Source of the DNA: Escherichia coli
Lineage (GTDB): Bacteria; Pseudomonadota; Gammaproteobacteria; Enterobacterales; Enterobacteriaceae
Assembly: GCF_013315695.1 (NCBI RefSeq)
Contig: NZ_CP054353.1
Reading direction: 5' to 3' (one strand)
Length of the DNA: 64,000 nucleotides
Position 1 is the stretch's first letter. Each line of letters starts with the position of its first letter. The translations under genes were made by a program, and so were the position numbers. A model generated the notes under the pieces. That model did not search any database. It was not told the origin of the DNA and saw only the letters and a list, made by a program, of their open reading frames with translations. This document shows positions 4,150-33,747 of the stretch, piece after piece.

Positions 4150-5319
<1,170 letters not shown>

Positions 5320-9431: not shown

Positions 9432-9494
9432 CGCAACCTCCGTCATGCTTGAAAAAGCTTGTCGGAGTATGTGATGAATGCTGCAAACTCACCG

Positions 9495-9527
9495 AAGCCG
9501 ATTTTGCCACCAAATCGGCTTTTTTAT
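9495..9527 (+). terminator. Candidate intrinsic terminator downstream of the 276-codon ORF
   Basis: Inverted repeat gccgattt / aaatcggc around a short loop, followed by ttttttatt. Confidence 0.5.
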
Positions 9528-9989: not shown

Positions 9990-10035
9990 GTATTTAGCTG
10001 CCAATTGCTACGAAATCGTTATAATGTGCGACCTC
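9990..10035 (+). promoter_or_regulatory. Candidate accBC promoter, -10 hexamer tataat at 10020..10025
   Basis: Perfect tataat about 270 bp upstream of accB; the accBC promoter is known to sit unusually far upstream of accB. The -35 assignment is ambiguous by eye. Confidence 0.4.
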
Positions 10036-10296
10036 GTCCTCCCTGACGCAGTTTTTGCGCTGCGGAAAAGGTGACATTGGCGCAACGAAGGTATATTTTG
10101 TTTTTTGCCGGAGGATAGCAGCAGATCGCTGCACAATGTCCGTCAAGTCTAACATTGACACTCTGGGGCAAAATAGACCGGCGTCCCGGCCTGCTGGAAT
10201 TTATCGCTATGCATACAGCTGTCGGGGCATACGCTTTACAGACGGCGGTGAAACGCCTGTCACAATCACACTAAACAAAGAGTACGGAACCCACTC

Positions 10297-12127: not shown

Positions 12128-12172
12128 TTTGTGATGCGCGGTGTTTTCATCGCGCTTAGCAAAGAACGTAAT

Positions 12173-12206
12173 CAACGCCGGGCCTGTTAACGCTGCCCGG
12201 CGTTTT
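12173..12206. terminator. Bidirectional intrinsic terminator shared by accC (+) and the convergent island gene (-)
   Basis: GC-rich inverted repeat cgccgggc ... gcccggcg followed by ttttta on the plus strand; sits between two convergent stop codons (12127 and 12219). Confidence 0.6.
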
Positions 12207-12218
12207 TATTGCCGTTAG

Positions 12219-13265: not shown

Positions 13266-14224
13266 TGTGCTGCTTCCCGAATGGACATGTCATGGCGCTG
13301 GATGAACGCTTCGATTTCCGCAAGGCGAGACGTTCCCTCCATTGGGCCACGTCGGGTTACCGCCAGTGCACCGCAGGCGTTGGCATATTGTAATGCCCGA
13401 TGGGCGTCAAACCCTAGCTGGCGGCAGGCAATCCACGCGCCACCAAAACAGTCTCCCGCACCGGTCGGGTCAACTTCTTCCACCGGATAGCTCTCAACAT
13501 GAAACTGCTCATTCGCGGAGTAGTAACTGGCACCTTGATTGCCGCGCTTCACAATCACCTCTTTAACACCTTCTTCAAGAAAACCAGCGATTGCACGCTC
13601 CGGTGTCGAGTGTGGCGACAAGAGCAACACTTCTCCCTCGCTGGGCATATAGATATCTGTTAACTCAAGAACAAAGTGGAGGGCGTCACGCATTTCTGGA
13701 ATATCGAGCATCTCTTTCCGAATATTAGGGTCAAAAGAAATAACGCCACCATTCTCTTTTACAATGGTTACCGCTTTCTTTACTGCGTCTACCATATGGA
13801 ATGAAAACAGGGATGAACCCATAATATGAAAATGGGTACAGTCCTTCAGAATATTTTCATCAACATGCTGCGCCGATAATTTACCGCAAGCGGCATTCTT
13901 GATATTAAAAATAAAATCGCGATCGCCAGAGTTATGATAAGTAACAAAGGCACTCCCGGTAGCTTCCAGAGGTAAGACTGAAATCCCCCTGATATCCACA
14001 CCGTCAGCAGCCAGACGATGTATATTAATATCACCAAAGCCATCATTCCCCACACAGCTAATGATGCCGCACGGAACGCCAAGACGTGTCACCTGGTCGA
14101 TAAAAATAGCGGGTGCGCCACTGGGATAAGGGCCGTTCCAGATACCTGGTTGATCAAATGGCTGGCCGATTTTACTCGCCATAATTTCAACCAGAATTTC
14201 TCCAATTGTGAAGACCTTACTCAT
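13262..14224 (-). CDS. pfkB/ribokinase-family sugar (phosphate) kinase, copy 1
   Basis: 320-aa translation with the family's C-terminal signature DPTGAGDCFGGA and an N-terminal Gly-rich substrate region. Confidence 0.85.
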   Translation of the reverse strand: MSKVFTIGEILVEIMASKIGQPFDQPGIWNGPYPSGAPAIFIDQVTRLGVPCGIISCVGNDGFGDINIHRLAADGVDIRGISVLPLEATGSAFVTYHNSGDRDFIFNIKNAACGKLSAQHVDENILKDCTHFHIMGSSLFSFHMVDAVKKAVTIVKENGGVISFDPNIRKEMLDIPEMRDALHFVLELTDIYMPSEGEVLLLSPHSTPERAIAGFLEEGVKEVIVKRGNQGASYYSANEQFHVESYPVEEVDPTGAGDCFGGAWIACRQLGFDAHRALQYANACGALAVTRRGPMEGTSRLAEIEAFIQRHDMSIREAAQ

Positions 14225-14245
14225 ATGATTAATTCCTTGAAATGA

Positions 14246-15235
14246 TTAGCTGCGTTTTCTTTTATTTCTTACGTCAAAATAAACGGCTACAAGAATGACT
14301 AATCCTTTAACCACCATCTGATAGAAATAGGGAACGTTCATTAAGTTCATGCCATTATTAATAACGCCGATGGTTAATGCCCCGATTACCGTCCCCACCA
14401 CGGTTCCATAGCCGCCGTTCAGGCTGGTGCCTCCCAGTACAGCCGCAGCAATAGCATCCAGTTCGTAGCTCAACGCGGAATTCGGTTGCCCGGAATAGAG
14501 GCGTGAGGCGAGGATCATCCCGCTGATACCTGCCAGCACAGCTGTAATCATAAAGACTTTTATTTTCAAGCGGGTGACATTTATCCCTGAATAAACTGCC
14601 GCTTCTTTATTACCACCAGTGATATAAATCTTTCGTCCAAAGGTTGTTTTAGTAAGAATGAAATGGTTAATCAGCAATAAGATAATTAATATCCAGATTG
14701 GAATAGGTATATAGAGAAATTCTCCATTCCCCAGCGCCAGAAAGGCATCATCTTTAATCATGATGGGCATACCATCGGTCACTATATAAGCGATACCACG
14801 GAAGATCCCCATAGTAGCAACGGTGACAATAAACGACGGGATCCCCGCTATAGCCGTCAAGCCACCATTTATCATCCCCAGAGCCAGGGCTGCAATAATG
14901 GATAATGGGACCAATAAAATAAATGGAATTCCCCATGAAGCCCCAAGCGCAGCAAATGTGCCAATCAATGCAATGGTTGAACCAACCGATAAATCAATAT
15001 CGCCAAGCAAAAGTACGTAAGTCATTCCATAGGCGGTAATTGCAATTATCGAAACCTGAAGAATAATATTAGTAATGTTATTGGCGGTAAAAAAACTGTC
15101 ATTAATAAAACTGAACAGAATGATTAACACCACCATTCCACTGAGGATACCGCCATATTGCCTGAAGACTTTTTTAAAATTATTTGCAATGGGAATTTCC
15201 GAAGGTTTCGGACTGGCAAGAGTTTTCTCTGTCAT
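14246..15235 (-). CDS. ABC sugar transporter permease (RbsC-like)
   Basis: 329-aa highly hydrophobic protein with multiple predicted membrane spans; immediately downstream of, and contiguous with, the ATPase gene. Confidence 0.85.
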   Translation of the reverse strand: MTEKTLASPKPSEIPIANNFKKVFRQYGGILSGMVVLIILFSFINDSFFTANNITNIILQVSIIAITAYGMTYVLLLGDIDLSVGSTIALIGTFAALGASWGIPFILLVPLSIIAALALGMINGGLTAIAGIPSFIVTVATMGIFRGIAYIVTDGMPIMIKDDAFLALGNGEFLYIPIPIWILIILLLINHFILTKTTFGRKIYITGGNKEAAVYSGINVTRLKIKVFMITAVLAGISGMILASRLYSGQPNSALSYELDAIAAAVLGGTSLNGGYGTVVGTVIGALTIGVINNGMNLMNVPYFYQMVVKGLVILVAVYFDVRNKRKRS

Positions 15236-16735
15236 TTAACGTACTCCTGTTGCAGCGGTCATTACCTGTGTCTGCGTTAAATTTTCACATGAATAAATAT
15301 CGGCAATCGTTTTATTACGCATTACCACCAGACGATCGCTAAGTGCCATGACTTCTGGCAGTTCAGAGGACACCAGAATAATTGCTGTCCCTGCCGCAGC
15401 CAGTTGACGTATCACGTTATAGATTTCAAATTTTGCGCCGACATCCACTCCGCGCGTTGGCTCATCGAGCAATAAAATACGCGGAGTTTTCTCCAGCCAC
15501 TTCGATAACACGATTTTCTGTTGATTACCGCCGCTCAGTGCTCCCACTGCCTGATGTACAGAACTCACTTTAGTGTTCATTCTGGCAATTGATTGCAGCG
15601 TCTTCGCCTCTTCTTGTCGGTGATTGATAAGTCCTATCCGCGAAGCGTTATATTGAAACGCCACATGGTGCGTGTTCATATTGACGTCGTGCATCAGCAC
15701 TAACCCTTCTTCCTTGCGGTTTTCGGTCACAAAAGCAATGCCATGATCAATAGCCTGTTTGGGATTAGCGATCCTGACTTCCTTACCATCAATCAACACA
15801 GTCCCGTGATACGAAACGAGGCCAAATAGCGCCTTCATCACATCGGAACGCCCGGCCCCCACCAGGCCAAAAAATCCGAGGACTTCCCCCGGACGCACAG
15901 CGAAACTGACCTCTTTAAAAAGCGAAGGATGGGAAAGGTTTTTTACTTCCAGTTTTGCAGGAACATTTTCATCCGGCTTTTCCCCAAGACGTGCTGGCCA
16001 AATATTTTTCATTTCCCGACCAACCATTTGGGCAATCAAATGCTGGATATCACTGTTTTTCTTTTCATGCGTAGCGATATACTCACCGTCGCGGATCACC
16101 GAAATATCATCTGAAATCCGCATAATTTCATCCATGCGATGAGAGATATAAATAACCGCACAACCTCGCTGCTTTAATTTCTCAATAATGTTAAACAGAA
16201 TCTCTGCTTCATTATCACTTAGCGAAGATGTCGGTTCATCCATAATCACGACATCTGCTGCATAGCTTAAGGCTTTGGCAATTTCTACCAGTTGCCTATG
16301 TGCCATCGACATATTGCCGACCATTTCCAGCGGATCCAGTGGGATGCCCAGTTCCGCGAGGAGATTCTGGCAATCTGCGAGCATTTTTTTATCGTTAATA
16401 ATGCCAAAACGTCGCGGTTCATTATTGGCATAAATATTTTCCGCCACGGTCATATTATTACTCAGGCTCAGTTCCTGAAAAATAATCGCAATCCCTAACT
16501 GGCGAGAATGCTGCGGATTATTAATGGTGATGGTTTCACCACGTAGTGTTATCGTTCCCTGGGTTGGCGGATAAACACCGGCGAGTATTTTCATTAATGT
16601 CGATTTACCGGCACCATTCTCGCCTAATAAAGTATGCACCCGCCCTTTACGTAAAGAGAGGGTAATATCTTTTAATGCCTGAACATGACCAAATGTCTTC
16701 GCAATATGCGAAACATCAAGAATAACATCCGTCAT
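15236..16735 (-). CDS. ABC sugar transporter ATP-binding protein with duplicated nucleotide-binding domains (RbsA-like)
   Basis: 499-aa translation with two Walker A motifs (GENGAGKST; GLVGAGRS) and two ABC signature motifs (LSGGNQQK-type), typical of monosaccharide importer ATPases. Confidence 0.9.
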   Translation of the reverse strand: MTDVILDVSHIAKTFGHVQALKDITLSLRKGRVHTLLGENGAGKSTLMKILAGVYPPTQGTITLRGETITINNPQHSRQLGIAIIFQELSLSNNMTVAENIYANNEPRRFGIINDKKMLADCQNLLAELGIPLDPLEMVGNMSMAHRQLVEIAKALSYAADVVIMDEPTSSLSDNEAEILFNIIEKLKQRGCAVIYISHRMDEIMRISDDISVIRDGEYIATHEKKNSDIQHLIAQMVGREMKNIWPARLGEKPDENVPAKLEVKNLSHPSLFKEVSFAVRPGEVLGFFGLVGAGRSDVMKALFGLVSYHGTVLIDGKEVRIANPKQAIDHGIAFVTENRKEEGLVLMHDVNMNTHHVAFQYNASRIGLINHRQEEAKTLQSIARMNTKVSSVHQAVGALSGGNQQKIVLSKWLEKTPRILLLDEPTRGVDVGAKFEIYNVIRQLAAAGTAIILVSSELPEVMALSDRLVVMRNKTIADIYSCENLTQTQVMTAATGVR

Positions 16736-16795
16736 AATGACCTCGGTGTCACAACAAAACGTCGATAACGTTTTGTTGTGAAATGAAGATGTTTA

Positions 16796-17686
16796 TCATT
16801 TACCTGTATAAACGCCGGGTTGTACCGGGATCATTTTTTCTACCGGTTTACCATTGAGGTGATCAACAGCGGCATCAATGGCTTTAGCACCCATTTGATC
16901 GGGATATTGCCGAATCACGGCCGCAAACGTTTTTTCACTGTCAACGGCATCACGCGCTTCTTTCATGCCGTCAAAACCAATGATTTTGATGTTGTCGTTA
17001 TGCGCAGATTTCGCTGCGATAACCGCTGCCAGCGCCGCATCATCACCAAAGCCAAACAGACCATTCAGGTTGGCATTTGCCTGCATAATGTTTTGCGCAG
17101 TCGTTAACGCTTCAGCCCGCGTAATACCAGGCTGTTCAGCAACAATTTTAATATCCGGTGTATCGCTTAACCCTTTCTTAAAACCATCAACGCGCGCAAC
17201 CACCGATTGTAATGCCGGATAAGAAATAATGGCTACAGTACCTTTACCATTCAAAAGTTTGCCCATTAACTTGCCTGCTTCAACGCCTCCCGCGTAGTTA
17301 TCGGTCGCAACATGCGATACGACCGGAACGCCTTCCGCAGCGACGTCGACGGTGATAACGGGAATACCGGCCTTATCGGCTTTAATTATCGCCGCCTGGA
17401 CGCCTTTCGAATCGACCGGAGAGATAATAATGGCATCCACTTTTTTAGTAATAAAATCCTCAACATCAGAAAGTTGTTTGTTTAAATCCTGATTGGCAAT
17501 AGAGACACTTAAATTGACATTGTCTTTTTTTGCCTCTTCTTTCATGGCATTCGCAAGATCAATATAGAAAGGATGTTGCTGTGTTAATAATGACGCACCA
17601 ATTTTATACTCTTTTGCCAACGAGCTTTGCGAGAACAATGCCAGGCTCACCAACATAGCTGAACCAAGTAATTTAATATTTTTCAT
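16796..17686 (-). CDS. Periplasmic sugar-binding protein (RbsB-like)
   Basis: 296 aa with N-terminal signal peptide (MKNIKLLGSAMLVSLALFSQSSLA) and periplasmic-binding-protein-like sequence. Confidence 0.85.
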   Translation of the reverse strand: MKNIKLLGSAMLVSLALFSQSSLAKEYKIGASLLTQQHPFYIDLANAMKEEAKKDNVNLSVSIANQDLNKQLSDVEDFITKKVDAIIISPVDSKGVQAAIIKADKAGIPVITVDVAAEGVPVVSHVATDNYAGGVEAGKLMGKLLNGKGTVAIISYPALQSVVARVDGFKKGLSDTPDIKIVAEQPGITRAEALTTAQNIMQANANLNGLFGFGDDAALAAVIAAKSAHNDNIKIIGFDGMKEARDAVDSEKTFAAVIRQYPDQMGAKAIDAAVDHLNGKPVEKMIPVQPGVYTGK

Positions 17687-17721
17687 AAATAATCCTCATT
17701 GTTTTTGTAGGGTACAACATC

Positions 17722-18603
<882 letters not shown>

Positions 18604-18697
18604 TTACAAAATGAAGAAAGAGAATCTTCACTTTCATTTTGAAAGCAAACTAGCACAGCAAAAGCGGCAAAAAGCGTGATGCATGTCGAATATCATC

Positions 18698-18722
18698 AAA
18701 ATAACTTACAAAAAATAACTTA
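18698..18722. repeat. Tandem direct repeat aaaataactta (two copies, 14-bp register) in the divergent island control region
   Basis: Exact 11-bp repeat at 18698..18708 and 18712..18722, between the divergent aldolase operon and the DeoR-family regulator gene. Confidence 0.35.
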
Positions 18723-18917
18723 ATTTGTTTTTTACTTTGTAAGTGAAACCAATGACACCTCTGCATAAATATGAATATATTCATTTATTTTTCAATGTAT
18801 TAAGCTATTTTCGTTGCGATTTTTGACCCATGATTTTCTTTTCGAATTGTCGATATTATTGAAGGGTAACTTTCAAAGAAAAATACAAGGGGCTATAGTG
18901 TTACGCATTAAAGGCCA

Positions 18918-19748
18918 ATGAAGAGTGTTAACGTGCCGAGAAAATCGTCTAACCTACTGAAACGCAGATTAAAAATTGCAGAAATTGTTGCCGCCCAGGG
19001 TGAAATCAAAGTTGATGACTTATCTGCGCAACTTGGTGTCTCTAGCGTGACGATCCGCGGCGATCTCAGTTATCTGGAGCAACAGGGATATTTAAAGCGA
19101 TCATTTGGCGGTGCTATTGCGACACCACTCTCCTCTGAACCAGAAGCGATACAACCGATCGCGCCGTTGTCTCTGGCACAACAAATGGAAATAGCACGAC
19201 ATTGCGCACGGTTAATTCGGGATCGTGACACGCTATTTCTTGGACATGGGACAATCTGCCGTAAGATCATTCCCTTGCTCAGCGAAGTGAAAAAACTGCG
19301 TCTGATCACCAACGATCCCGAACATGCGCTGCTGGCAAATCAGTTTATTGATGGCGAAATAATACTGGCTGGCAGTGAAATGCTGCGCCCCGATACCGCA
19401 CTGGCCGGAAAACCTCTCGAACAGGCACTTCAGCATTTCACCATTACACATAGCATTCTGGAAATCAGCCATCTGGATGCTGATGGTACTTTAAATATCA
19501 ACGTTCCCAGACTTGCCGCTGCCTGGCAGCTCTGTTTCGATAATGCCCAGAATAAGACGGTTATCGTTGCCGCCGATCCTGCGCCATCAACGGCTGCTAT
19601 CGGGCATTTGCATCAAGCAGAAAATGTGATCGTCAGCCGCAGCATTAACGAACAATATCAGCAACAATTGCAGTCGGCTGATTTCGTTATCCTTTATACC
19701 AGTAATGAGTGCTTTACCTGGTCCAATCGCGAAAGGCTTCAGGAATGA
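18918..19748 (+). CDS. DeoR-family transcriptional regulator
   Basis: N-terminal helix-turn-helix pattern ...IAEIVAAQGEIKVDDLSAQLGVSSVTIRGDLSYLEQQGYLKRSFGGA..., as in GlpR/DeoR proteins; transcribed divergently from the transporter/aldolase operon. Confidence 0.8.
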   Translation: MKSVNVPRKSSNLLKRRLKIAEIVAAQGEIKVDDLSAQLGVSSVTIRGDLSYLEQQGYLKRSFGGAIATPLSSEPEAIQPIAPLSLAQQMEIARHCARLIRDRDTLFLGHGTICRKIIPLLSEVKKLRLITNDPEHALLANQFIDGEIILAGSEMLRPDTALAGKPLEQALQHFTITHSILEISHLDADGTLNINVPRLAAAWQLCFDNAQNKTVIVAADPAPSTAAIGHLHQAENVIVSRSINEQYQQQLQSADFVILYTSNECFTWSNRERLQE

Positions 19749-19758
19749 GAGGGGTTTT

Positions 19759-20715
19759 GTGACAATAACTATCTGCGCTATGGGCGAATTGCTGGCCGAG
19801 TTTTTGTCCCGCAACCCACATCAAAAATTCACTCAGCCTGGGGAGTTTATCGGGCCATTTCCCAGCGGTGCACCAGCAATTTTTGCTGCTCAGGTGGCAA
19901 AACTGTCCCATCGGGCCATCTTCTTCGGATGTGTTGGTAATGATGATTTTGGCCGACTCATTATAGAGCGTCTCCGTCATGAAGGTGTCATTACCGATGG
20001 GATTCACGTTATGAACAATGCCGTCACAGGTACGGCGTTCGTGAGTTATCAAAATCCCCAGCAGCGGGATTTCGTCTTTAATATCCCTAACAGCGCCTGC
20101 GGTTTGTTTACTGCCGAGCACATTGATAAGGATCTGCTTAAACAGTGTAACCATCTGCATATTGTGGGCTCATCGTTGTTCTCATTTCGCATGATCGATG
20201 TCATGCGTAAAGCAATAACGACGATCAAATCGGCTGGCGGAACCGTTTCTTTCGATCCCAATATTCGCAAAGAGATGCTGAGCATTCCTGAAATGGCGCA
20301 GGCCCTCGATTATTTGATTGAATATACGGATATTTTTATCCCCAGCGAAAGCGAACTCCCTTTCTTCGCGCGTCACAAAAATCTGTCAGAAGAACAGATT
20401 GTTAGCGATCTTCTCCACGGCGGCGTAAAACATGTGGCGATAAAACGCGCCCAGCGTGGGGCCAGCTATTACAAGCTTAAAAACGGTACATTACACGCCC
20501 AGCATGTTACAGGCCACGATATCGAAATTATCGATCCAACGGGTGCAGGCGACTGCTTTGGCGCAACGTTTATCACTCTTTTCTTATCCGGTTTCCCGGC
20601 ACACAAGGCGCTGCAATATGCAAATGCCAGCGGCGCGCTCGCCGTAATGCAGCAAGGTCCGATGGAAGGGATATCCTCACTGACTGACATTGAAGACTTT
20701 TTGCAGCAGCACTGA
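19759..20715 (+). CDS. pfkB/ribokinase-family sugar (phosphate) kinase, copy 2
   Basis: Paralogue of the 13262..14224 kinase (shared blocks PSGAPAIF, GSSLFSF, SFDPNIRKEML, DPTGAGDCFG, LQYANA.GALAV). Start set at GTG 19759, just after the regulator stop and a gagagggg stretch; the ORF-track start at 19705 overlaps the regulator. Confidence 0.85.
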   Translation: MTITICAMGELLAEFLSRNPHQKFTQPGEFIGPFPSGAPAIFAAQVAKLSHRAIFFGCVGNDDFGRLIIERLRHEGVITDGIHVMNNAVTGTAFVSYQNPQQRDFVFNIPNSACGLFTAEHIDKDLLKQCNHLHIVGSSLFSFRMIDVMRKAITTIKSAGGTVSFDPNIRKEMLSIPEMAQALDYLIEYTDIFIPSESELPFFARHKNLSEEQIVSDLLHGGVKHVAIKRAQRGASYYKLKNGTLHAQHVTGHDIEIIDPTGAGDCFGATFITLFLSGFPAHKALQYANASGALAVMQQGPMEGISSLTDIEDFLQQH

Positions 20716-20807
20716 ACGGCAATTTTCTGTCAGATTATTTTCCCTGCCTGAAGAGTTGCCGTAGAATTGCCCGTTTCTCGTATCCCCCCATGAGGAGGAC
20801 CCCTTCC

Positions 20808-21050
20808 GTGGACACTCGTTTTGTTCAGGCCCATAAAGAGGCGCGCTGGGCGCTGGGGCTGACCCTTTTGTATCTGGCGGTATGGTTAGTAGCCGCTTAC
20901 TTACCTGGCGTTACCCCCGGTTTTACCGGCTTTCCACGCTGGTTTGAGATGGCTTGCATCCTGACGCCGCTGCTGTTTATTGGACTGTGCTGGGCGATGG
21001 TGAAATTTATCTATCGCGATATCCCACTGGAGGATGACGATGCAGCTTGA
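20808..21050 (+). CDS. yhdT: Small membrane protein YhdT
   Basis: Translation (V/M)DTRFVQAHKEARWALGLTLLYLAVWLVAAYL... (80 aa) from a GTG; overlaps the panF start. Confidence 0.85.
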   Translation: MDTRFVQAHKEARWALGLTLLYLAVWLVAAYLPGVTPGFTGFPRWFEMACILTPLLFIGLCWAMVKFIYRDIPLEDDDAA

Positions 21051-25085: not shown

Positions 25086-25970
25086 ATGAGAACAGGATGT
25101 GAACCGACCCGATTTGGTAATGAAGCAAAGACCATCATCCAAGGTGATGCATTAACCGAACTTAAAAAGATCCCCGCCGAAAGTGTAGATCTGATCTTTG
25201 CCGACCCACCGTATAACATCGGTAAAAATTTTGATGGTCTGATCGAAGCCTGGAAAGAAGATCTGTTTATCGACTGGCTGTTTGAAGTGATTGCAGAGTG
25301 CCACCGCGTTCTGAAAAAGCAGGGCAGCATGTACATCATGAACAGCACGGAAAACATGCCCTTTATCGATCTCCAGTGCCGCAAGCTTTTTACCATCAAA
25401 AGTCGCATCGTCTGGTCATATGACAGTTCTGGAGTGCAGGCGAAAAAACACTACGGCTCCATGTACGAACCCATCCTGATGATGGTGAAAGACGCAAAGA
25501 ACTACACGTTCAACGGTGATGCTATTCTGGTAGAAGCCAAAACCGGATCGCAGCGCGCGTTGATCGATTATCGCAAAAATCCTCCACAGCCTTACAATCA
25601 TCAAAAAGTACCGGGTAACGTCTGGGATTTTCCGCGCGTGCGTTATTTGATGGATGAATATGAGAATCACCCGACGCAAAAACCGGAAGCCTTACTGAAA
25701 CGCATTATTCTCGCCTCTTCCAACCCAGGCGATATCGTTCTCGACCCGTTTGCCGGTAGCTTTACTACCGGTGCCGTAGCCGCCGCCAGCGGGCGAAAAT
25801 TCATTGGTATTGAGATCAACAGCGAGTACATCAAAATGGGGCTTCGACGGCTGGATGTCGCGTCGCATTACTCTGCGGAAGAACTGGCGAAAGTGAAAAA
25901 AAGAAAGACCGGCAACCTGTCAAAACGAAGCCGGTTAAGCGAAGTTGACCCCGATCTCATTGCAAAGTAA
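25086..25970 (+). CDS. yhdJ: N6-adenine DNA methyltransferase YhdJ
   Basis: Translation MRTGCEPTRFGNEAKTIIQGDALTELKKIPAESVDLIFADPPYNIG... with the DPPY catalytic motif. Confidence 0.9.
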   Translation: MRTGCEPTRFGNEAKTIIQGDALTELKKIPAESVDLIFADPPYNIGKNFDGLIEAWKEDLFIDWLFEVIAECHRVLKKQGSMYIMNSTENMPFIDLQCRKLFTIKSRIVWSYDSSGVQAKKHYGSMYEPILMMVKDAKNYTFNGDAILVEAKTGSQRALIDYRKNPPQPYNHQKVPGNVWDFPRVRYLMDEYENHPTQKPEALLKRIILASSNPGDIVLDPFAGSFTTGAVAAASGRKFIGIEINSEYIKMGLRRLDVASHYSAEELAKVKKRKTGNLSKRSRLSEVDPDLIAK

Positions 25971-26053
25971 AGGAAGTGTAAGCCTGGTTTTCAGATTATT
26001 CATTTCGTGTATATTTCCTGCCAGACTTGGTTAAACATGCACAGGCTCAGGTA

Positions 26054-26233
26054 ATGATTCGCAAGTATTGGTGGCTCGTCGTTTTCGCTGTCTTCGTTTT
26101 TCTGTTTGATACTTTACTGATGCAGTGGATTGAACTGCTGGCAACAGAAACAGACAAATGCCGCAATATGAACTCAGTTAATCCACTAAAACTGGTTAAC
26201 TGTGACGAACTGAATTTTCAGGACAGAATGTGA
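26054..26233 (+). CDS. yhdU: Small membrane protein YhdU
   Basis: Translation MIRKYWWLVVFAVFVFLFDTLLMQWIELLATE... (59 aa) with one hydrophobic span; start taken at the internal Met of the ORF-track protein. Confidence 0.7.
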   Translation: MIRKYWWLVVFAVFVFLFDTLLMQWIELLATETDKCRNMNSVNPLKLVNCDELNFQDRM

Positions 26234-26235
26234 AT

Positions 26236-26898
26236 TTATATGACACTTAATTCATTCGTTTGATGAATTAATTTCGTTATGTTTTCATCTGGCATGAACA
26301 TTCTTAATACGTTATCGACCAGTGCGGGTGCTTGTTTATAAAGATCATAACCCGCCATATTCATTAACCAGTTTTGAACAATTCCGCTGAAGGCACCATC
26401 AATAATAATCATCACAACATCTAAATCGAGATTATTTGCTATACAACCTTGTTGCTGACATGCCTGCAATACTTCGCGGAGAGTCTGCGGATTAAAGCCC
26501 ATCTTTTCGCGTATCACTCCCTCTGCCAGCATCTCATCATTAAATTCACATTTGTGATATAAGATTTTCAGCAACGCCTGCTGGCGGGGAATTTTGGCAA
26601 TATATTGCAAGCCAACAATCAATTTTTCACGCAATTGCTGAAACGGGTCATGCTCTAACCCAGCAGTCAAGTGATCCTGGATTAACTCCCGCAATGAAGG
26701 CTGTTGCAACCACATCTCATTAAACAGTTGGGTCTTGTTCTCGAAGTGCCAGTAGATAGCGCCACGCGTAACGTTAGCGGCGTCGGCAATGTCGTTGAGC
26801 GTCGTCTTGCTTACGCCATGCTGCGCAAACTGGGCGATGGCAGTTTCAATCAGTTCTTGCCGGGTCTTCAGAGCTTCGGCTTTGGTTCTTTTTGCCAT
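26236..26898 (-). CDS. acrS: TetR-family repressor of acrEF (AcrS/EnvR)
   Basis: 220-aa translation MAKRTKAEALKTRQELIETAIAQFAQHGVSKTTLNDIADAANVTRGAIYWHFENK... (TetR helix-turn-helix), divergent from acrE. Confidence 0.92.
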   Translation of the reverse strand: MAKRTKAEALKTRQELIETAIAQFAQHGVSKTTLNDIADAANVTRGAIYWHFENKTQLFNEMWLQQPSLRELIQDHLTAGLEHDPFQQLREKLIVGLQYIAKIPRQQALLKILYHKCEFNDEMLAEGVIREKMGFNPQTLREVLQACQQQGCIANNLDLDVVMIIIDGAFSGIVQNWLMNMAGYDLYKQAPALVDNVLRMFMPDENITKLIHQTNELSVI

Positions 26899-27296
26899 GA
26901 TTAATTATTCAGGAAATAAATATATTCGACACAGAGTGAGAAAATAGCGAAGGTTAATCTATCACCTAATGTGTATTTATACGAGAGGCTAATATTGAGT
27001 TGCTATAAATCGTTAAATAAATAATATATATTATTTACCTAAGATACATTCACTACATCAATATATATTTCAATTTACGAGGATTTGATTCTACCTCTTT
27101 CAACCCGCGTCAAAATAAAACAGTAGAATATTAATCTTTTTTTGTGTTTATGTGCCTTGAGACGCCAGTATTCATAACTATTCCTTACATCGACGAATGA
27201 TAATTTGTAGGATAGCGAACTGTATTTTTCTTTCTGCGAGTTAACGCGTTGCCTTTTTGGGTAAATAACGCGCTTTTGGTTTTTTGAGGAATAGTA

Positions 27297-28454
27297 ATGA
27301 CGAAACATGCCAGGTTTTTCCTCCTGCCCTCCTTTATTCTGATCTCCGCGGCTTTAATCGCCGGTTGTAACGATAAGGGAGAAGAGAAAGCTCACGTCGG
27401 TGAACCGCAGGTTACCGTTCATATTGTGAAAACGGCCCCGTTAGAAGTTAAGACTGAATTACCAGGCCGCACCAATGCTTACCGTATAGCCGAAGTTCGC
27501 CCACAGGTTAGCGGGATCGTACTGAGTCGCAATTTCACTGAAGGCAGCGATGTGCAAGCAGGCCAGTCTCTGTACCAGATCGATCCCGCGACCTATCAGG
27601 CAAGTTATGACAGCGCGAAAGGCGAACTGGCGAAAAGTGAAGCCGCCGCCGCCATCGCGCATTTGACGGTAAAACGTTACGTTCCGCTCGTGGGTACGAA
27701 ATACATCAGTCAGCAGGAGTACGACCAGGCCATTGCTGATGCTCGCCAGGCCGATGCCGCCGTGATTGCCGCAAAAGCCACAGTCGAAAGCGCTCGCATC
27801 AATCTCGCTTATACCAAAGTGACTGCGCCAATTAGCGGACGTATCGGCAAATCGACTGTGACCGAAGGCGCTCTTGTCACTAATGGGCAAACGACTGAAC
27901 TGGCGACTGTCCAGCAGCTCGATCCTATCTACGTTGATGTGACCCAATCCAGCAACGATTTTATGAGGCTGAAGCAATCCGTAGAGCAAGGAAATTTGCA
28001 TAAGGAAAACGCCACCAGCAACGTAGAGTTGGTCATGGAGAACGGTCAAACCTATCCCCTGAAAGGTACGCTGCAATTCTCCGATGTGACCGTTGATGAA
28101 AGCACCGGCTCCATAACCCTACGTGCTGTCTTCCCTAACCCGCAACATACGCTTTTGCCGGGTATGTTTGTGCGCGCACGGATTGATGAAGGCGTCCAAC
28201 CTGACGCCATTCTTATCCCGCAACAAGGCGTTAGCCGCACACCACGTGGTGCTGCAACCGTGCTGATTGTTAACAATAAAAGTCAGGTTGAAGCGCGCCC
28301 TGTCGTTGCCAGTCAGGCGATTGGCGATAAGTGGTTGATTAGCGAAGGTCTGAAATCTGGCGATCAAGTCATTGTCAGCGGCCTGCAAAAAGCGCGTCCG
28401 GGAGAGCAGGTTAAAGCCACTACCGATACCCCCGCAGATACTGCATCGAAGTAA
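27297..28454 (+). CDS. acrE: Periplasmic adaptor subunit of the AcrEF-TolC efflux pump
   Basis: 385-aa lipoprotein (signal peptide plus lipobox LIAGC), membrane-fusion-protein family; matches remembered AcrE. Confidence 0.95.
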   Translation: MTKHARFFLLPSFILISAALIAGCNDKGEEKAHVGEPQVTVHIVKTAPLEVKTELPGRTNAYRIAEVRPQVSGIVLSRNFTEGSDVQAGQSLYQIDPATYQASYDSAKGELAKSEAAAAIAHLTVKRYVPLVGTKYISQQEYDQAIADARQADAAVIAAKATVESARINLAYTKVTAPISGRIGKSTVTEGALVTNGQTTELATVQQLDPIYVDVTQSSNDFMRLKQSVEQGNLHKENATSNVELVMENGQTYPLKGTLQFSDVTVDESTGSITLRAVFPNPQHTLLPGMFVRARIDEGVQPDAILIPQQGVSRTPRGAATVLIVNNKSQVEARPVVASQAIGDKWLISEGLKSGDQVIVSGLQKARPGEQVKATTDTPADTASK

Positions 28455-28465
28455 GGTAATCTGAC

Positions 28466-31246
28466 ATGGCAAACTTTTTTATTCGACGACCGATATTTGC
28501 ATGGGTGCTGGCCATTATTCTGATGATGGCGGGCGCACTGGCGATCCTACAATTGCCCGTCGCTCAGTATCCAACCATTGCACCGCCTGCGGTTTCTGTT
28601 TCAGCAAACTATCCGGGCGCTGATGCGCAGACTGTGCAGGATACGGTGACGCAGGTTATCGAACAGAATATGAACGGTATCGATAACCTGATGTATATGT
28701 CCTCCACCAGCGATTCCGCCGGTAGCGTGACAATTACCCTTACCTTCCAGTCCGGGACCGATCCTGATATCGCGCAAGTGCAGGTGCAGAACAAACACCA
28801 GCTCGCCACGCCGTTGCTGCCGCAGGAGGTTCAGCAGCAGGGGATCAGTGTTGAAAAGTCCAGTAGCAGCTATTTGATGGTGGCGGGCTTTGTCTCTGAT
28901 AACCCAGGCACCACACAGGACGATATCTCGGACTATGTGGCCTCTAACGTTAAAGATACGCTTAGCCGTCTGAATGGCGTCGGTGACGTACAGCTTTTCG
29001 GCGCACAGTATGCGATGCGTATCTGGCTGGACGCCGATCTGCTAAACAAATATAAACTGACACCGGTTGATGTGATTAACCAGTTGAAGGTACAGAACGA
29101 TCAGATCGCTGCCGGACAGTTGGGCGGAACGCCAGCGTTACCAGGGCAACAGTTGAACGCCTCGATTATTGCTCAGACGCGGTTAAAAAATCCGGAAGAA
29201 TTCGGCAAAGTGACCTTGCGCGTAAACAGTGACGGCTCGGTGGTACGCCTGAAAGATGTCGCACGGGTTGAACTTGGCGGTGAAAACTATAACGTTATCG
29301 CTCGCATCAACGATAAACCGGCGGCGGGCCTGGGTATTAAGCTGGCAACCGGCGCGAATGCTCTCGATACCGCGAAAGCCATTAAGGCAAAACTGGCGGA
29401 ATTACAGCCATTCTTCCCGCAGGGAATGAAGGTTCTCTACCCTTATGACACCACACCATTCGTCCAGCTTTCTATTCACGAAGTGGTAAAAACGCTGTTC
29501 GAAGCCATTATGCTGGTGTTCCTGGTGATGTATCTGTTCTTGCAGAATATGCGAGCAACGCTGATCCCCACCATTGCGGTACCCGTGGTGTTGTTAGGGA
29601 CGTTTGCCATCCTCGCCGCTTTTGGTTACTCCATCAACACACTAACGATGTTCGGGATGGTGCTTGCCATCGGGCTGCTCGTCGATGATGCGATAGTGGT
29701 GGTGGAGAACGTCGAGCGCGTGATGATGGAGGATAAGCTCCCGCCAAAAGAAGCGACGGAAAAATCGATGTCGCAAATTCAGGGCGCACTGGTGGGTATC
29801 GCGATGGTGCTGTCAGCGGTATTTATTCCAATGGCATTCTTCGGCGGTTCTACTGGGGCAATTTACCGCCAGTTCTCTATCACCATCGTTTCGGCAATGG
29901 CGCTTTCTGTTCTGGTGGCATTGATTCTTACCCCAGCGTTATGTGCAACACTGCTCAAACCCGTCTCTGCTGAGCATCACGAAAATAAGGGCGGTTTCTT
30001 CGGCTGGTTTAATACCACCTTCGATCATAGCGTTAACCACTACACCAACAGCGTCGGCAAAATCCTCGGTTCCACAGGACGATATTTACTGATCTATGCA
30101 CTAATTGTTGCTGGAATGGTGGTGTTGTTTTTACGTCTTCCGTCTTCCTTCTTACCTGAAGAGGATCAGGGAGTCTTTCTGACTATGATTCAGTTACCCG
30201 CTGGCGCGACGCAAGAGCGGACGCAAAAAGTGTTGGATCAAGTGACGGATTACTATCTGAAGAACGAGAAAGCGAACGTAGAAAGTGTCTTTACGGTTAA
30301 CGGCTTTAGCTTCAGCGGCCAGGCACAAAACGCCGGTATGGCCTTCGTCAGTCTGAAACCGTGGGAAGAGCGTAGTGGTGACGAAAACAGTGCGGAAGCG
30401 GTAATCCATCGTGCCAAAATGGAATTGGGCAAGATCCGCGACGGTTTTGTCATTCCATTCAATATGCCAGCCATTGTTGAACTGGGCACGGCAACGGGTT
30501 TCGACTTTGAGTTAATTGATCAGGCTGGGCTGGGTCACGATGCCCTGACCCAGGCCCGTAACCAGTTGCTTGGCATGGCGGCGCAACATCCTGCCAGCTT
30601 AGTCAGCGTGCGTCCTAATGGTCTGGAAGACACCGCGCAGTTTAAACTGGAAGTTGACCAGGAAAAGGCGCAGGCATTAGGTGTTTCACTTTCTGACATC
30701 AATCAGACCATTTCAACGGCGTTGGGTGGGACTTACGTTAACGACTTCATTGACCGTGGTCGCGTGAAAAAGGTGTATGTTCAGGCGGATGCCAAATTCC
30801 GTATGCTGCCAGAAGATGTCGATAAACTTTATGTCCGCAGCGCCAACGGCGAAATGGTGCCATTCTCTGCCTTTACCACTGCACATTGGGTGTATGGCTC
30901 TCCGCGACTGGAGCGCTACAACGGTCTGCCGTCAATGGAGATTCAGGGGGAAGCCGCGCCAGGAACCAGTTCCGGCGATGCCATGGCGTTGATGGAAAAC
31001 ATTGCGTCAAAATTACCGGCGGGCATTGGTTATGACTGGACGGGTATGTCATATCAGGAACGTTTATCGGGAAACCAGGCTCCCGCTCTGGTAGCAATTT
31101 CCTTTGAGGTTGTTTTCCTGTGCCTTGCTGCACTCTATGAAAGCTGGTCAATTCCTGTCTCGGTTATGTTGGTCGTGCCGTTAGGGATTGTCGGCGTGCT
31201 ACTGGCGGCAACACTCTTTAATCAAAAAAATGACGTCTACTTTATG
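28466..31246 (+). pseudogene. acrF: acrF (RND inner-membrane transporter) truncated at its 3' end by IS1
   Basis: Translation matches AcrF from [23 protein letters not shown]... through ...[11 protein letters not shown] (about 927 codons); the frame then runs into the IS1 inverted repeat and stops after 9 IS1-encoded codons (GDAANLLI*). Full-length AcrF is about 1034 aa, so roughly the last 107 codons are absent. Confidence 0.85.
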
Positions 31247-31301
31247 GGTGATGCTGCCAACTTACTGATTTAGTGTATGATGGTGTTTTTGAGGTGCTCC
31301 A

Positions 31302-31577
31302 GTGGCTTCTGTTTCTATCAGCTGTCCCTCCTGTTCAGCTACTGACGGGGTGGTGCGTAACGGCAAAAGCACCGCCGGACATCAGCGCTATCTCTGCTCT
31401 CACTGCCGTAAAACATGGCAACTGCAGTTCACTTACACCGCTTCTCAACCCGGTACGCACCAGAAAATCATTGATATGGCCATGAATGGCGTTGGATGCC
31501 GGGCAACAGCCCGCATTATGGGCGTTGGCCTCAACACGATTTTACGTCACTTAAAAAACTCAGGCCGCAGTCGGTAA
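31302..31577 (+). CDS. insA: IS1 InsA (transposition inhibitor / N-terminal part of the transposase)
   Basis: 91-aa translation [43 protein letters not shown]...; an A6C slippery run (aaaaaac, 31553..31559) lies near its 3' end. Confidence 0.9.
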
Positions 31578-31999
31578 CCTCGCGCATACAGCCGGGCAGT
31601 GACGTCATCGTCTGCGCGGAAATGGACGAACAGTGGGGCTATGTCGGGGCTAAATCGCGCCAGCGCTGGCTGTTTTACGCGTATGACAGGCTCCGGAAGA
31701 CGGTTGTTGCGCACGTATTCGGTGAACGCACTATGGCGACGCTGGGGCGTCTTATGAGCCTGCTGTCACCCTTTGACGTGGTGATATGGATGACGGATGG
31801 CTGGCCGCTGTATGAATCCCGCCTGAAGGGAAAGCTGCACGTAATCAGCAAGCGATATACGCAGCGAATTGAGCGGCATAACCTGAATCTGAGGCAGCAC
31901 CTGGCACGGCTGGGACGGAAGTCGCTGTCGTTCTCAAAATCGGTGGAGCTGCATGACAAAGTCATCGGGCATTATCTGAACATAAAACACTATCAATAA
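31496..31999 (+). CDS. insB: IS1 InsB frame (transposase InsAB' is made by -1 frameshifting from insA)
   Basis: 167-aa translation [64 protein letters not shown]..., matching remembered InsB. Confidence 0.88.
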
Positions 32000-32069
32000 G
32001 TTGGAGTCATTACCCGTTAATAAGAGAGTTAACTTATTAAGCGTTAGCGTTTATTACTGAGGTAACACC

Positions 32070-32291
32070 ATGAAAAGATTAATTCCTGTGGCATTGCTCA
32101 CCGCATTGCTGGCGGGCTGTGCTCACGATTCGCCCTGCGTTCCGGTTTATGATGATCAGGGGCGACTGGTTCACACCAATACCTGTATGAAAGGCACGAC
32201 TCAGGATAACTGGGAAACGGCTGGGGCTATTGCTGGCGGGGCAGCAGCTGTTGCTGGCCTGACGATGGGGATCATCGCTCTGTCGAAATAA
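32070..32291 (+). CDS. yhdV: Small lipoprotein YhdV
   Basis: 73-aa translation MKRLIPVALLTALLAGCAHDS... (lipobox LAGC) with a Gly/Ala-rich C-terminal hydrophobic segment. Confidence 0.85.
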   Translation: MKRLIPVALLTALLAGCAHDSPCVPVYDDQGRLVHTNTCMKGTTQDNWETAGAIAGGAAAVAGLTMGIIALSK

Positions 32292-32295
32292 CTGA

Positions 32296-32320
32296 ACAGA
32301 GCGCGGAGTACCGCGCTCTG
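32296..32320 (+). terminator. Candidate terminator hairpin after yhdV
   Basis: cagagcgcgg agta ccgcgctctg inverted repeat just after the yhdV stop; the following T-tract is weak (tttaa). Confidence 0.4.
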
Positions 32321-32721
32321 TTTAACGATACAGTATCTCACCATAAGATAAAATATTGCTATATTCTGCTGGCTAATTCCCTGCTGATTTAGCATGTTAT
32401 ATCGCGTTATTTCGCTGCTTTCGAAATAACGCATCAATTTAATTTTCACACTTCCCACCAGAATTATACTCACGCTAACAATCATTATTCTGCTTAGTAA
32501 AAAACGCGTAAATATTTTGCGCCAAAATGTGGCGCATGTTTCATTTTCGCACCATTGCGGGGCGCTGTTTTTATTATTTCCTGTCTACACTCAGCTTATT
32601 GCGACGCGAAATCGTGCGCAAAAACTGGCACTACTTTTGCTTATAAGAGGATGGCCACAGACAGGTAAAAGACGTTTCCCAAATGTCCTATAACGATAAT
32701 TTTCGCCTCACAGGAAGCATT

Positions 32722-33747
32722 ATGAAAAAGATGATGATAGCCACACTGGCTGCCGCCAGCGTGCTGCTTGCCGTTGCAAATCAGGCGCATGCTGGCGCGA
32801 CGCTTGATGCCGTACAGAAAAAAGGTTTTGTGCAATGCGGGATCAGTGATGGATTACCTGGGTTCTCTTATGCCGATGCTGACGGTAAATTTTCAGGTAT
32901 TGATGTTGATATTTGTCGTGGTGTTGCCGCTGCTGTATTTGGTGACGACACGAAAGTGAAATATACCCCGCTCACTGCAAAAGAACGCTTCACCGCTTTA
33001 CAGTCAGGGGAGGTGGATTTGCTCTCCCGTAATACGACCTGGACTTCATCTCGCGATGCCGGGATGGGAATGGCATTTACCGGCGTCACTTATTACGACG
33101 GCATTGGCTTCCTGACTCACGATAAAGCGGGACTAAAAAGCGCGAAAGAACTGGATGGCGCAACCGTCTGTATTCAGGCGGGTACTGATACCGAACTCAA
33201 CGTTGCCGATTACTTCAAGGCAAACAATATGAAGTACACACCAGTGACTTTCGATCGCTCTGACGAATCAGCGAAGGCACTGGAATCTGGTCGCTGCGAT
33301 ACGCTGGCCTCGGATCAATCACAACTGTATGCCCTGCGCATCAAATTAAGCAACCCAACTGAATGGATTGTCTTACCGGAAGTTATCTCTAAAGAACCAC
33401 TTGGGCCGGTAGTTCGTCGTGGCGATGATGAATGGTTCTCGATTGTACGCTGGACGCTTTTCGCCATGCTGAATGCTGAAGAGATGGGCATCAATTCCCA
33501 GAACGTCGATGAAAAAGCGGCTAATCCAGCAACGCCCGATATGGCCCATCTGCTGGGTAAAGAGGGCGATTACGGCAAGGATCTGAAGCTGGATAATAAA
33601 TGGGCTTACAACATCATCAAACAGGTGGGTAACTACTCGGAAATTTTTGAGCGTAACGTAGGTTCAGAAAGCCCGCTGAAAATTAAACGTGGGCAAAATA
33701 ATCTCTGGAATAACGGCGGTATTCAGTACGCGCCGCCCGTGCGTTAA
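32722..33747 (+). CDS. yhdW: Periplasmic amino-acid-binding protein of an ABC transporter (intact here)
   Basis: Translation MKKMMIATLAAASVLLAVANQAHAGATLDAVQKKGFVQCG... (signal peptide plus solute-binding fold); first gene of the yhdWXYZ cluster. Confidence 0.9.
   Translation: MKKMMIATLAAASVLLAVANQAHAGATLDAVQKKGFVQCGISDGLPGFSYADADGKFSGIDVDICRGVAAAVFGDDTKVKYTPLTAKERFTALQSGEVDLLSRNTTWTSSRDAGMGMAFTGVTYYDGIGFLTHDKAGLKSAKELDGATVCIQAGTDTELNVADYFKANNMKYTPVTFDRSDESAKALESGRCDTLASDQSQLYALRIKLSNPTEWIVLPEVISKEPLGPVVRRGDDEWFSIVRWTLFAMLNAEEMGINSQNVDEKAANPATPDMAHLLGKEGDYGKDLKLDNKWAYNIIKQVGNYSEIFERNVGSESPLKIKRGQNNLWNNGGIQYAPPVR

What the first reader, a model, noticed from the sequence alone, without database searches (positions are those of the whole stretch)
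26899..27296. The acrS-acrE intergenic region is a long AT-rich tract; the downstream pump gene is IS-disrupted
The roughly 400-bp divergent control region is very AT-rich, with runs such as aataaataatatatattatttacc. acrEF is known to be transcriptionally silent under laboratory conditions and can be activated by IS insertions upstream. In this window the only IS element sits inside acrF rather than upstream, so here the IS inactivates the locus instead of activating it.
Basis: partly seen in the sequence, partly recalled or inferred. Interest (0 to 1): 0.25.

Follow-up and report, generated by a model that had tools for sequence, protein, structure and literature searches.

The report
Silent acrEF pump locus, IS1-truncated
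This is the well-known AT-rich control region of E. coli's normally silent back-up drug-efflux pump AcrEF, in a strain where an IS1 element and a 520-bp deletion have cut off the end of the pump gene; it is ordinary and already explained.

Summary
Window 26899-27296 is exactly the 398-bp acrS(envR)-acrE divergent spacer. At 30.9% GC it is the most AT-rich 398-bp stretch of the 64-kb window, and it contains the longest pure A/T run (25 nt).

Published work already shows that acrEF is H-NS-silenced and can be switched on by IS insertions upstream. The K-12 spacer is listed as an H-NS and RNA-polymerase binding spacer.

My cross-genus comparison shows three zones. A 148-bp core keeps its AT composition (24-31% GC) but not its sequence. 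The acrE-proximal 158 bp is 52% invariant and holds a weak promoter-like pair, a previously predicted marbox-like site and the ribosome-binding site.

The IS claim is right but imprecise. A complete 768-bp IS1, the only IS in the window, is not simply inserted in acrF. It replaces 520 bp (the last 323 bp of acrF plus 197 bp of the downstream spacer) and has no target-site duplication, so a secondary deletion occurred. AcrF loses part of TM10, all of TM11-12 and the proton-relay residues, so the pump is almost certainly dead. acrS and acrE are intact.

The same junction occurs in only 2 of 5,426 complete E. coli genomes. Other IS lesions at this locus are common.

Verdict: already known, low interest.

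The parts
26236..26898 (-). acrS (envR), TetR-family repressor gene, intact, 220 aa, GC 43.6%
   Evidence: ORF; annotated as acrS in K-12 and in NZ_LR898874.1; 97.9% nucleotide identity to K-12
26899..27296 (.). acrS-acrE divergent intergenic control region, 398 bp, GC 30.9%
   Evidence: present in 5,230 of 5,426 E. coli genomes, and 398 bp without indels in every strain aligned
26991..27138 (.). AT-rich core (GC 24%). Composition is conserved across genera but sequence is not. Inferred H-NS nucleation/spreading tract
   Evidence: GC 24-31% in nine taxa with only 10% invariant columns; within-E. coli substitutions cluster here
27013..27037 (.). 25-nt pure A/T run, the longest in the window
26995..27025 (+). 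TTGAGT-19-AATAAT, the acrEF 'constitutive promoter' predicted by genomic SELEX in K-12
   Evidence: Motif given in PMC3946193 and located in the window; it lies in a region poorly conserved across genera
27044..27066 (.). Semi-palindrome ATACATTCA-N5-TCAATATAT (core CATTCA-N5-TGAATG, 10 of 12 here). Candidate TetR-type (AcrS) operator, unproven
   Evidence: 12/12 in E. albertii, 11/12 in E. marmotae and C. amalonaticus, weaker in the other taxa
27139..27158 (-). Marbox-like 20-mer AAGGCACATAAACACAAAAA (minus strand), a conserved block
   Evidence: Located; conserved across nine taxa; the same sequence was predicted as a mar/sox/rob site in PMC2453137; binding not demonstrated
27184..27213 (+). 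CTTACA-18-TAGGAT, a weak sigma-70-like pair (8 of 12) inside the most conserved blocks; contains the -10 half (27201-27213) of the invariant TAATTTGTAGGATA, which spans 27201-27214
   Evidence: the consensus scan found no promoter of 9/12 or better anywhere in the spacer
27286..27296 (+). acrE ribosome-binding region (GAGGAATAGTA before ATG)
27297..28454 (+). acrE, periplasmic adaptor gene, intact, 385 aa
28466..31246 (+). acrF', truncated RND permease gene with 927 native codons. The open frame runs on to 31273, adding 8 IS1-encoded residues (GDAANLLI)
   Evidence: annotated as a pseudogene 'missing C-terminus' in NZ_LR898874.1; alignment to AcrB structures shows loss of the K940, R971 and T978 equivalents
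31247..32014 (+). IS1, complete at 768 bp. It has 23-bp inverted repeats (18/23 matching), insA at 31302-31577, the A6C frameshift site at 31551, and the insB' frame to 31999
   Evidence: annotated as an IS1A-family transposase. Flanks TACTTTATG and CGTTAATAA show no target-site duplication
32015..32069 (.). Remaining 55 bp of the acrF-yhdV spacer. The acrF terminator and 197 bp of the spacer are deleted
32070..32291 (+). yhdV, small lipoprotein/membrane protein gene, intact, now 55 bp from the IS1 right end

Best explanation
The 398-bp tract is the native, vertically inherited control region of the cryptic acrEF multidrug-efflux operon and its divergent regulator gene acrS.

Its upstream two-thirds is a tract kept AT-rich by selection on composition rather than sequence. 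This is the kind of DNA that the nucleoid protein H-NS binds and spreads over, and that keeps both divergent promoters silent. The acrE-proximal third carries the sequence-conserved elements: a marbox-like site, a weak promoter-like pair, the 5' leader and the ribosome-binding site.

In this strain no IS has landed upstream, so the operon is expected to remain silent. The pump gene is also structurally dead. An IS1 that entered the AT-rich acrF-yhdV spacer was followed by a deletion extending leftwards. This was most likely an IS1-mediated adjacent deletion by intramolecular transposition. It removed 197 bp of spacer, the acrF terminator and the last 107 codons of acrF.

Shown: coordinates, composition, conservation pattern, IS1 anatomy, the 520-bp replacement, the absence of a target duplication, and the loss of part of TM10, all of TM11-12 and the proton-relay residues.

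Inferred: H-NS occupancy and silence in this strain, loss of pump function, and the order and mechanism of insertion and deletion.
For: Identity of the locus: collinear with K-12 and with annotated NZ_LR898874.1.

AT-richness: this is the lowest-GC 398-bp stretch and holds the longest A/T run in 64 kb.

Conservation: spacer length is 395-413 bp and GC is 30-34% in E. marmotae, E. albertii, E. fergusonii, Salmonella and four Citrobacter lineages. The core is 24-31% GC with 10% invariant columns; the acrE-proximal 158 bp is 52% invariant.

Literature: H-NS represses acrEF, expression is very low in the laboratory, and IS insertions upstream activate it. The envR<>acrE spacer is flagged H-NS-binding and RpoD-binding by genomic SELEX. 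No promoter of 9/12 or better was found.

IS1 and deletion: K-12 positions 11350-11869 of locus L001 are replaced by a 768-bp IS1. The IS1 is complete and its flanks differ.

AcrF: truncated at residue 927, before the equivalents of AcrB K940, R971 and T978.

Not an artefact: the identical junction occurs in two independent complete genomes.

IS1 target: the acrF-yhdV spacer is 34.5% GC. It carries simple IS1 insertions at four or more other positions in other genomes.
Against: No expression or H-NS occupancy data exist for this strain. The high-affinity H-NS 10-mer motif match in the spacer (27010-27019) is no more than chance gives. The acrE transcription start is not established; the SELEX-predicted promoter and the conserved promoter-like pair are different sites. 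No intermediate genome (IS1 with target duplication at this right junction and intact acrF) was found, so the order of events is inferred.
Confidence: 0.85

Rival explanations
1. The AT-richness is just ordinary intergenic composition of a divergent promoter region and has no special silencing role; acrEF is weakly expressed simply because its promoter is poor.
For: Intergenic DNA in this window is generally AT-richer than genes (median about 41% GC), and another divergent spacer reaches 32%. No promoter of 9/12 or better is present. The H-NS motif match is at chance level.
Against: This is the extreme of the whole window. Low GC in the core is maintained across genera while the sequence turns over, which argues for selection on composition. 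Published hns deletions derepress acrEF in E. coli and Salmonella, and SELEX maps H-NS to this spacer.
Confidence: 0.08
2. The 520-bp loss arose by homologous recombination between two directly repeated IS1 copies, one in acrF at codon 927 and one in the acrF-yhdV spacer, rather than by IS1 intramolecular transposition (adjacent deletion).
For: The end product would be the same: one IS1 and no target duplication. The host lineage is IS1-rich, with at least 40 matching pieces per genome. The spacer is a repeated IS1 target in other strains.
Against: It needs two independent insertions within 520 bp plus a recombination event, against one insertion plus one IS1-catalysed event. No genome carrying either single insertion at these exact positions was seen among 5,426.
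Confidence: 0.3
3. The lesion has a regulatory gain rather than being pure decay. For example, IS1 read-through or a hybrid promoter may now drive yhdV, or intact AcrE may be retained because it can serve other RND pumps.
For: The IS1 right end lies 55 bp from the yhdV start, and the native upstream 197 bp and the acrF terminator are gone. acrE and acrS are intact, with few lineage-specific changes. IS1 ends are known to create hybrid promoters (citations).
Against: There is no evidence of expression. Only 2 of 5,426 genomes share the allele, so there is no sign of spread by selection. Many different IS and point lesions hit this locus, which is the pattern of drift in a dispensable locus, as already proposed in PMC6790063.
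Confidence: 0.07

Closest known systems
E. coli K-12 acrS(envR)-acrEF locus, the H-NS-silenced cryptic RND efflux operon
   Same: Gene order is the same (yhdJ-yhdU-acrS<>acrE-acrF-yhdV). The spacer is the same 398 bp, with 98.7% identity and 5 substitutions. acrS and acrE are intact.
   Different: acrF lacks its last 107 codons and its terminator. IS1 replaces 520 bp.
IS-activated acrEF mutants (IS1/IS2 in E. coli, IS1/IS10 in Salmonella, selected in acrB mutants)
   Same: The locus is the same, the element (IS1) is the same, and IS1 again targets AT-rich DNA flanking the operon.
   Different: In those mutants the IS sits upstream of acrE and raises expression. Here nothing is inserted in the spacer, and the IS lies at the 3' end and destroys acrF.
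Classical IS1-mediated adjacent deletions
   Same: One IS1 end abuts its original neighbourhood. The other end abuts sequence 520 bp away, the intervening DNA is lost, and there is no 9-bp target duplication.
   Different: The mechanism cannot be told apart from recombination between two IS1 copies using the sequence alone.
Other natural lesions of the same locus in E. coli
   Same: These all reflect decay of a silent locus. They include IS903B in acrE (179 of 5,426 genomes; 126 of them also lack acrS, the spacer and the acrE 5' end), IS3 in acrF, IS1 in the spacer with loss of acrEF through yhdW', an internal stop in O157:H7 acrF, and a frameshift in strain ECCNB12-2. Premature stops in envR, acrE and acrF were reported in PMC6790063.
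   Different: The window's IS1/520-bp allele is a separate and rare event, found in 2 complete genomes.

Membership tests
acrS-acrEF locus of Escherichia coli | Synteny and near-identity with the K-12 locus (acrS divergent from acrE-acrF, between yhdU and yhdV) | tested here: met
   97.9-98.7% identity segment by segment and the same order
H-NS-silenced AT-rich regulatory region | GC content far below the genome average over a few hundred bp including the promoters | tested here: met
   30.9% against 50%; lowest 398-bp stretch in the window; conserved low GC across genera
H-NS-silenced AT-rich regulatory region | Physical H-NS binding to the region | not testable with these tools
   For K-12 only, the envR<>acrE spacer is flagged HNS in genomic SELEX (PMC3946193). 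The 10-mer high-affinity motif match is at chance level.
H-NS-silenced AT-rich regulatory region | Derepression of the downstream genes when hns is deleted | not testable with these tools
   Reported for E. coli and Salmonella in papers cited by the reviews read; not known for this strain
IS-mediated activation of acrEF | An IS element inserted upstream of acrE (in the spacer or in acrS), providing or creating a promoter | tested here: not met
   The spacer is uninterrupted at 398 bp and aligns end to end with K-12. The only IS is at 31247-32014.
IS1 insertion sequence | About 768 bp, about 23-bp imperfect terminal inverted repeats, and insA and insB' frames with an A6C frameshift site | tested here: met
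   768 bp, inverted repeats 18/23, insA 91 aa, A6C at 31551, insB' frame open; annotated IS1A family
IS1 insertion sequence (simple insertion) | Direct duplication of about 9 bp of target on both sides, with no loss of target DNA | tested here: not met
   Flanks are TACTTTATG and CGTTAATAA, and 520 bp of target is missing relative to K-12. The element is therefore filed as IS1 plus a secondary deletion.
Functional RND (HAE-1) permease | Twelve transmembrane helices with the proton-relay residues (AcrB D407, D408, K940, R971, T978) | tested here: not met
   Native sequence ends at residue 927. The AcrF equivalents K939, R970 and T977 and TM11-12 are absent.
mar/sox/rob regulon promoter | A 20-bp marbox matching the consensus at a suitable distance and orientation from the promoter, and bound by MarA, SoxS or Rob | tested here: inconclusive
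   AAGGCACATAAACACAAAAA lies at 27139-27158 on the minus strand and is conserved across genera. It was predicted earlier (PMC2453137), but binding has not been shown and the promoter is not mapped.
TetR-family (AcrS/AcrR-type) operator | A palindromic operator in the regulator's own divergent spacer | tested here: inconclusive
   CATTCA-N5-TGAATG-like element at 27047-27063: 10/12 here, 12/12 in E. albertii, only 9/12 or off-site in several taxa. The half-site spacing differs from the acrAB operator as I recall it.

The most novel reading that the evidence does not exclude
The AT-rich, H-NS-type DNA that brackets the silent acrEF operon (the upstream spacer and the acrF-yhdV spacer) may act as a preferred landing pad for IS elements. 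The same property that silences the locus would then make it evolve mainly by IS events. Those events are activating when selected in pump-deficient cells and destructive otherwise. About 4% of complete E. coli genomes carry such structural lesions, and the window's allele would be one rare example.
Probability: 0.3. Interest if true: 0.3.

Novelty: already known. Interest (0 to 1): 0.1.

Why it matters
It matters little beyond strain annotation. This lineage has lost the AcrF back-up pump, so the well-known escape route of activating acrEF when AcrB is lost or inhibited is closed for it. Intact AcrE could still partner other pumps.

More generally, the locus illustrates that silent, H-NS-covered genes drift and are repeatedly hit by insertion sequences. 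That point has already been made in the literature.

Tried and rejected
- Consensus sigma-70 scan of 26700-27500: no promoter of 9/12 or better, against 1.8 expected in shuffles. No strong promoter can be named.
- High-affinity H-NS motif TCGWTWAATT with one mismatch: one hit in the spacer, but 19 hits window-wide against 17.4 expected, so it is uninformative.
- Rfam scan of 25900-32800 at E<=1: nothing in the spacer. The only hit is a sub-threshold match inside acrE (Bcj14, 35.9 bits against a gathering score of 59), dismissed as chance.
- Repeat search in the spacer: only low-complexity AT palindromes.
- Looked for a second IS in the window: none.
- Looked for intermediates of the IS1/deletion event among 5,426 genomes: none.
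- Tried to read the primary papers on IS activation and AcrS (PMC95182, PMC90490, PMC2546796, PMC538886): not held. Exact published IS insertion sites could therefore not be mapped onto the window.
- Lineage-specific substitutions in acrF' (5 nonsynonymous of 20, including L111H, G283D and V881E) hint at relaxed selection, but the sample of comparators is too small to conclude.
- The regex for the SELEX-predicted envR promoter TTAAAA-17-TATATT found no match in the window on the strand tried.

Full report
**What is at the coordinates**

Window 26899-27296 is exactly the 398-bp spacer between the start of acrS (envR; minus strand, 26236-26898, 220 aa) and the start of acrE (27297-28454, 385 aa). 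The annotated K-12 locus and the annotated genome of E. coli MSB1_4I (NZ_LR898874.1) confirm the gene names and order: yhdJ-yhdU-acrS<>acrE-acrF-yhdV. The whole 64-kb window is collinear with MSB1_4I, with 7 mismatches. The source is therefore an E. coli chromosome of that lineage.

**Is the AT-richness real and unusual?**

Yes. The spacer is 30.9% GC in a window that averages 50%. Of all 398-bp windows, only 0.02% are as low, and all of those overlap this spacer. The 100-200-bp core reaches 20-25.5% GC. Among intergenic regions longer than 100 bp it ranks lowest. A 341-bp divergent spacer inside an accessory sugar island comes next at 32%.

**Variation within E. coli**

The spacer is present in 5,230 of 5,426 complete genomes. 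In every strain I aligned it is 398 bp without indels. Identities fall into two classes: at least 96% (about 4,100 genomes; K-12 98.7%) and about 94% (about 1,100 genomes, phylogroup-B2-type such as ATCC 25922 and ST131). The substitutions cluster in the central core (about 26993-27118), while the ends next to acrS and acrE are nearly invariant.

**Variation across genera**

I fetched the locus from E. marmotae, E. albertii, E. fergusonii, Salmonella enterica and four Citrobacter lineages. Spacer length (395-413 bp) and low GC (30-34%) are conserved in all of them. The alignment splits the spacer into three zones:

| Zone | Coordinates | Length | Invariant columns | GC |
|---|---|---|---|---|
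| acrS-proximal | 26899-26990 | 92 bp | 12% | 26-38% |
| Core | 26991-27138 | 148 bp | 10% | 24-31% in every taxon |
| acrE-proximal | 27139-27296 | 158 bp | 52% | 36-40% |

In the core, composition is conserved while sequence is not. That is what is expected of DNA whose role is to be bound by a composition-reading silencer.

The conserved acrE-proximal blocks are:
- a marbox-like 20-mer (27139-27158; minus strand AAGGCACATAAACACAAAAA);
- CTTACATC (27184-27191);
- the invariant TAATTTGTAGGATA (27201-27214);
- GGTAAATAAC (27260-27269);
- the ribosome-binding site.

CTTACA-18-TAGGAT (27184-27213) is the only conserved sigma-70-like pair, and it is weak at 8 of 12. The consensus scan found nothing at 9/12 or better in the whole spacer.

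A semi-palindrome in the core (27044-27066, core CATTCA-N5-TGAATG) scores 12/12 in E. albertii and 10/12 here. It is a candidate AcrS operator, but the evidence is modest.

**What the literature already says**

- acrEF expression is very low in laboratory conditions, H-NS represses it, and deletion of acrEF has no resistance phenotype (review PMC4462101; PMC6599122).
- IS1 or IS2 upstream of acrEF in E. coli, and IS1 or IS10 in Salmonella, activate the operon in acrB mutants.
- Genomic SELEX in K-12 lists the envR<>acrE spacer as bound by RpoD holoenzyme and flags it as containing an H-NS site. It predicts TTGAGT-19-AATAAT as the acrEF promoter (PMC3946193). That motif is at window 26995-27025.
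- envR is described as H-NS-silenced in Salmonella and as mainly a repressor of acrAB (PMC9780535).
- The marbox-like site was predicted in 2008 (PMC2453137).
- Higher variation of envR-acrEF in Escherichia, premature stops in envR, acrE and acrF, and the drift explanation were published in 2019 (PMC6790063).

**The IS element**

- IS1 occupies 31247-32014. It is complete at 768 bp, with 23-bp inverted repeats (18/23 matching), insA, the A6C frameshift site at 31551 and an open insB' frame.
- It is the only IS1 copy in the window, and the only transposase in the collinear annotation.
- Compared with K-12, the IS1 replaces 520 bp: the last 323 bp of acrF and the first 197 bp of the 252-bp acrF-yhdV spacer, including the acrF terminator.
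- The flanks (TACTTTATG and CGTTAATAA) are not a target duplication.

The structure is therefore not a simple insertion inside acrF. It is an IS1 with an adjacent deletion. The most economical history is insertion into the AT-rich (34.5% GC) acrF-yhdV spacer followed by IS1-mediated adjacent deletion leftwards. Recombination between two IS1 copies would give the same product and cannot be excluded.

That spacer is a repeated IS1 target. Other genomes carry simple IS1 insertions at four or more other positions within it. The exact junction of the window occurs in only two complete genomes, MSB1_4I and NZ_OZ547117.1, both IS1-rich. This also argues against an assembly artefact.

**Consequence for the pump**

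The acrF frame keeps 927 native codons and then reads 8 codons into IS1 (GDAANLLI, stop at 31271-31273). Alignment of full-length AcrF to solved AcrB structures is collinear with a one-residue offset. It places the equivalents of AcrB K940, R971 and T978 (AcrF K939, R970, T977), and all of TM11-12, beyond the break.

From established knowledge of RND transporters, these residues form the proton relay, so the truncated protein should be inactive. This is an inference and was not measured. acrS and acrE are intact. RefSeq already annotates this acrF allele as a pseudogene in MSB1_4I.

**Context: the locus decays often**

| Feature or lesion | Genomes (of 5,426 complete) |
|---|---|
| Spacer absent | 196 |
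| The 520 bp at the acrF 3′ end absent | 75 |
| IS903B in acrE at the position equivalent to window 27488 | 179 |
| Of those, yhdU', acrS, spacer and acrE 5' end also lost | 126 |

Single examples include:
- IS3 in acrF (strain I3);
- IS1 61 bp into the spacer with loss of acrE through yhdW' (strain 035152);
- a net 45-bp insertion with an internal stop in O157:H7 acrF;
- a frameshift in strain ECCNB12-2.

The window's allele is one rare member of this series.

**Verdict**

Everything important here is already known or is strain-level pseudogenisation. The only modestly new points are descriptive. One is the three-zone conservation pattern of the spacer. The other is the frequency of IS lesions at the locus. 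Interest is low.

Noticed in passing
window 12128-20808: An 8.7-kb accessory sugar-utilisation island lies between accC and yhdT and is absent from K-12. It encodes an aldose 1-epimerase, two sugar kinases, an ABC transporter, a tagatose-bisphosphate-type aldolase and a DeoR regulator. Its own divergent spacer (18577-18917) is 32% GC.
   Followed up: partly
L010 (NZ_CP093226.1) 2535-3587; L012 (NZ_CP027701.1) 2916-3968; equivalent to window 27488: IS903B is inserted in acrE in 179 of 5,426 complete E. coli genomes. In 126 of them an adjacent 1.37-kb deletion also removes the yhdU 3' end, acrS, the whole spacer and the acrE 5' end, leaving IS903B directly upstream of an intact acrF. Whether IS903B drives acrF there is unknown.
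   Followed up: partly
K-12 locus L001 11673-11924 (acrF-yhdV spacer); window 32015-32069 is its remnant: This 252-bp, 34.5% GC spacer is a recurrent IS1 target. IS1 copies occur at four or more distinct positions in other E. coli genomes, with spacing consistent with about 9-bp duplications where both junctions were recovered (three of the positions). One position is shared by about 10 pig-associated isolates.
   Followed up: partly
L006 (NZ_CP101705.1) 4062-4830; equivalent to window 26960-32965: Blood isolate 035152 has an IS1 61 bp into the acrS-acrE spacer, with everything from there to inside yhdW deleted (acrE, acrF, yhdV). This is a natural IS1 event in the spacer itself, but a destructive one.
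   Followed up: yes
L008 (O157:H7 F8798) 9429-9481; equivalent to window 30327-30334: O157:H7 acrF carries a net 45-bp insertion and is annotated as a pseudogene with an internal stop. Several O157:H7 genomes show the same two-piece match.
   Followed up: partly
window 28466-31246: The truncated acrF has lineage-specific nonconservative substitutions relative to five comparators: L111H, G283D, and V881E in a transmembrane segment. This may reflect relaxed selection after inactivation, but the sample is too small to conclude.
   Followed up: partly
L017 (E. marmotae, Logan SRR25724274) 1-1105: acrE is called as two ORFs (230 and 143 aa) in this E. marmotae contig. This is either a frameshift/stop or an assembly error.
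   Followed up: no
window 26236-26898 and homologues: AcrS diverges quickly for a core gene: 82% identity in E. albertii, 72% in E. fergusonii and 69% in Salmonella. The gene is AT-rich (42-44% GC) in all taxa, so the low-GC domain probably includes acrS as well as the spacer.
   Followed up: partly
window 8601-10296: MSB1_4I annotates a hypothetical protein (276 aa) between acuI and accB, followed by an 865-bp gene-free stretch. I did not compare this with K-12.
   Followed up: no
E. coli genomes, spacer query: The spacer query gave 5,250 places in 5,230 matching genomes, at most two per genome, so about 20 genomes have it in two places, and 16 have under 80% coverage in one place. Some of these may be natural IS insertions upstream of acrE, but the tool could not list them.
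   Followed up: no
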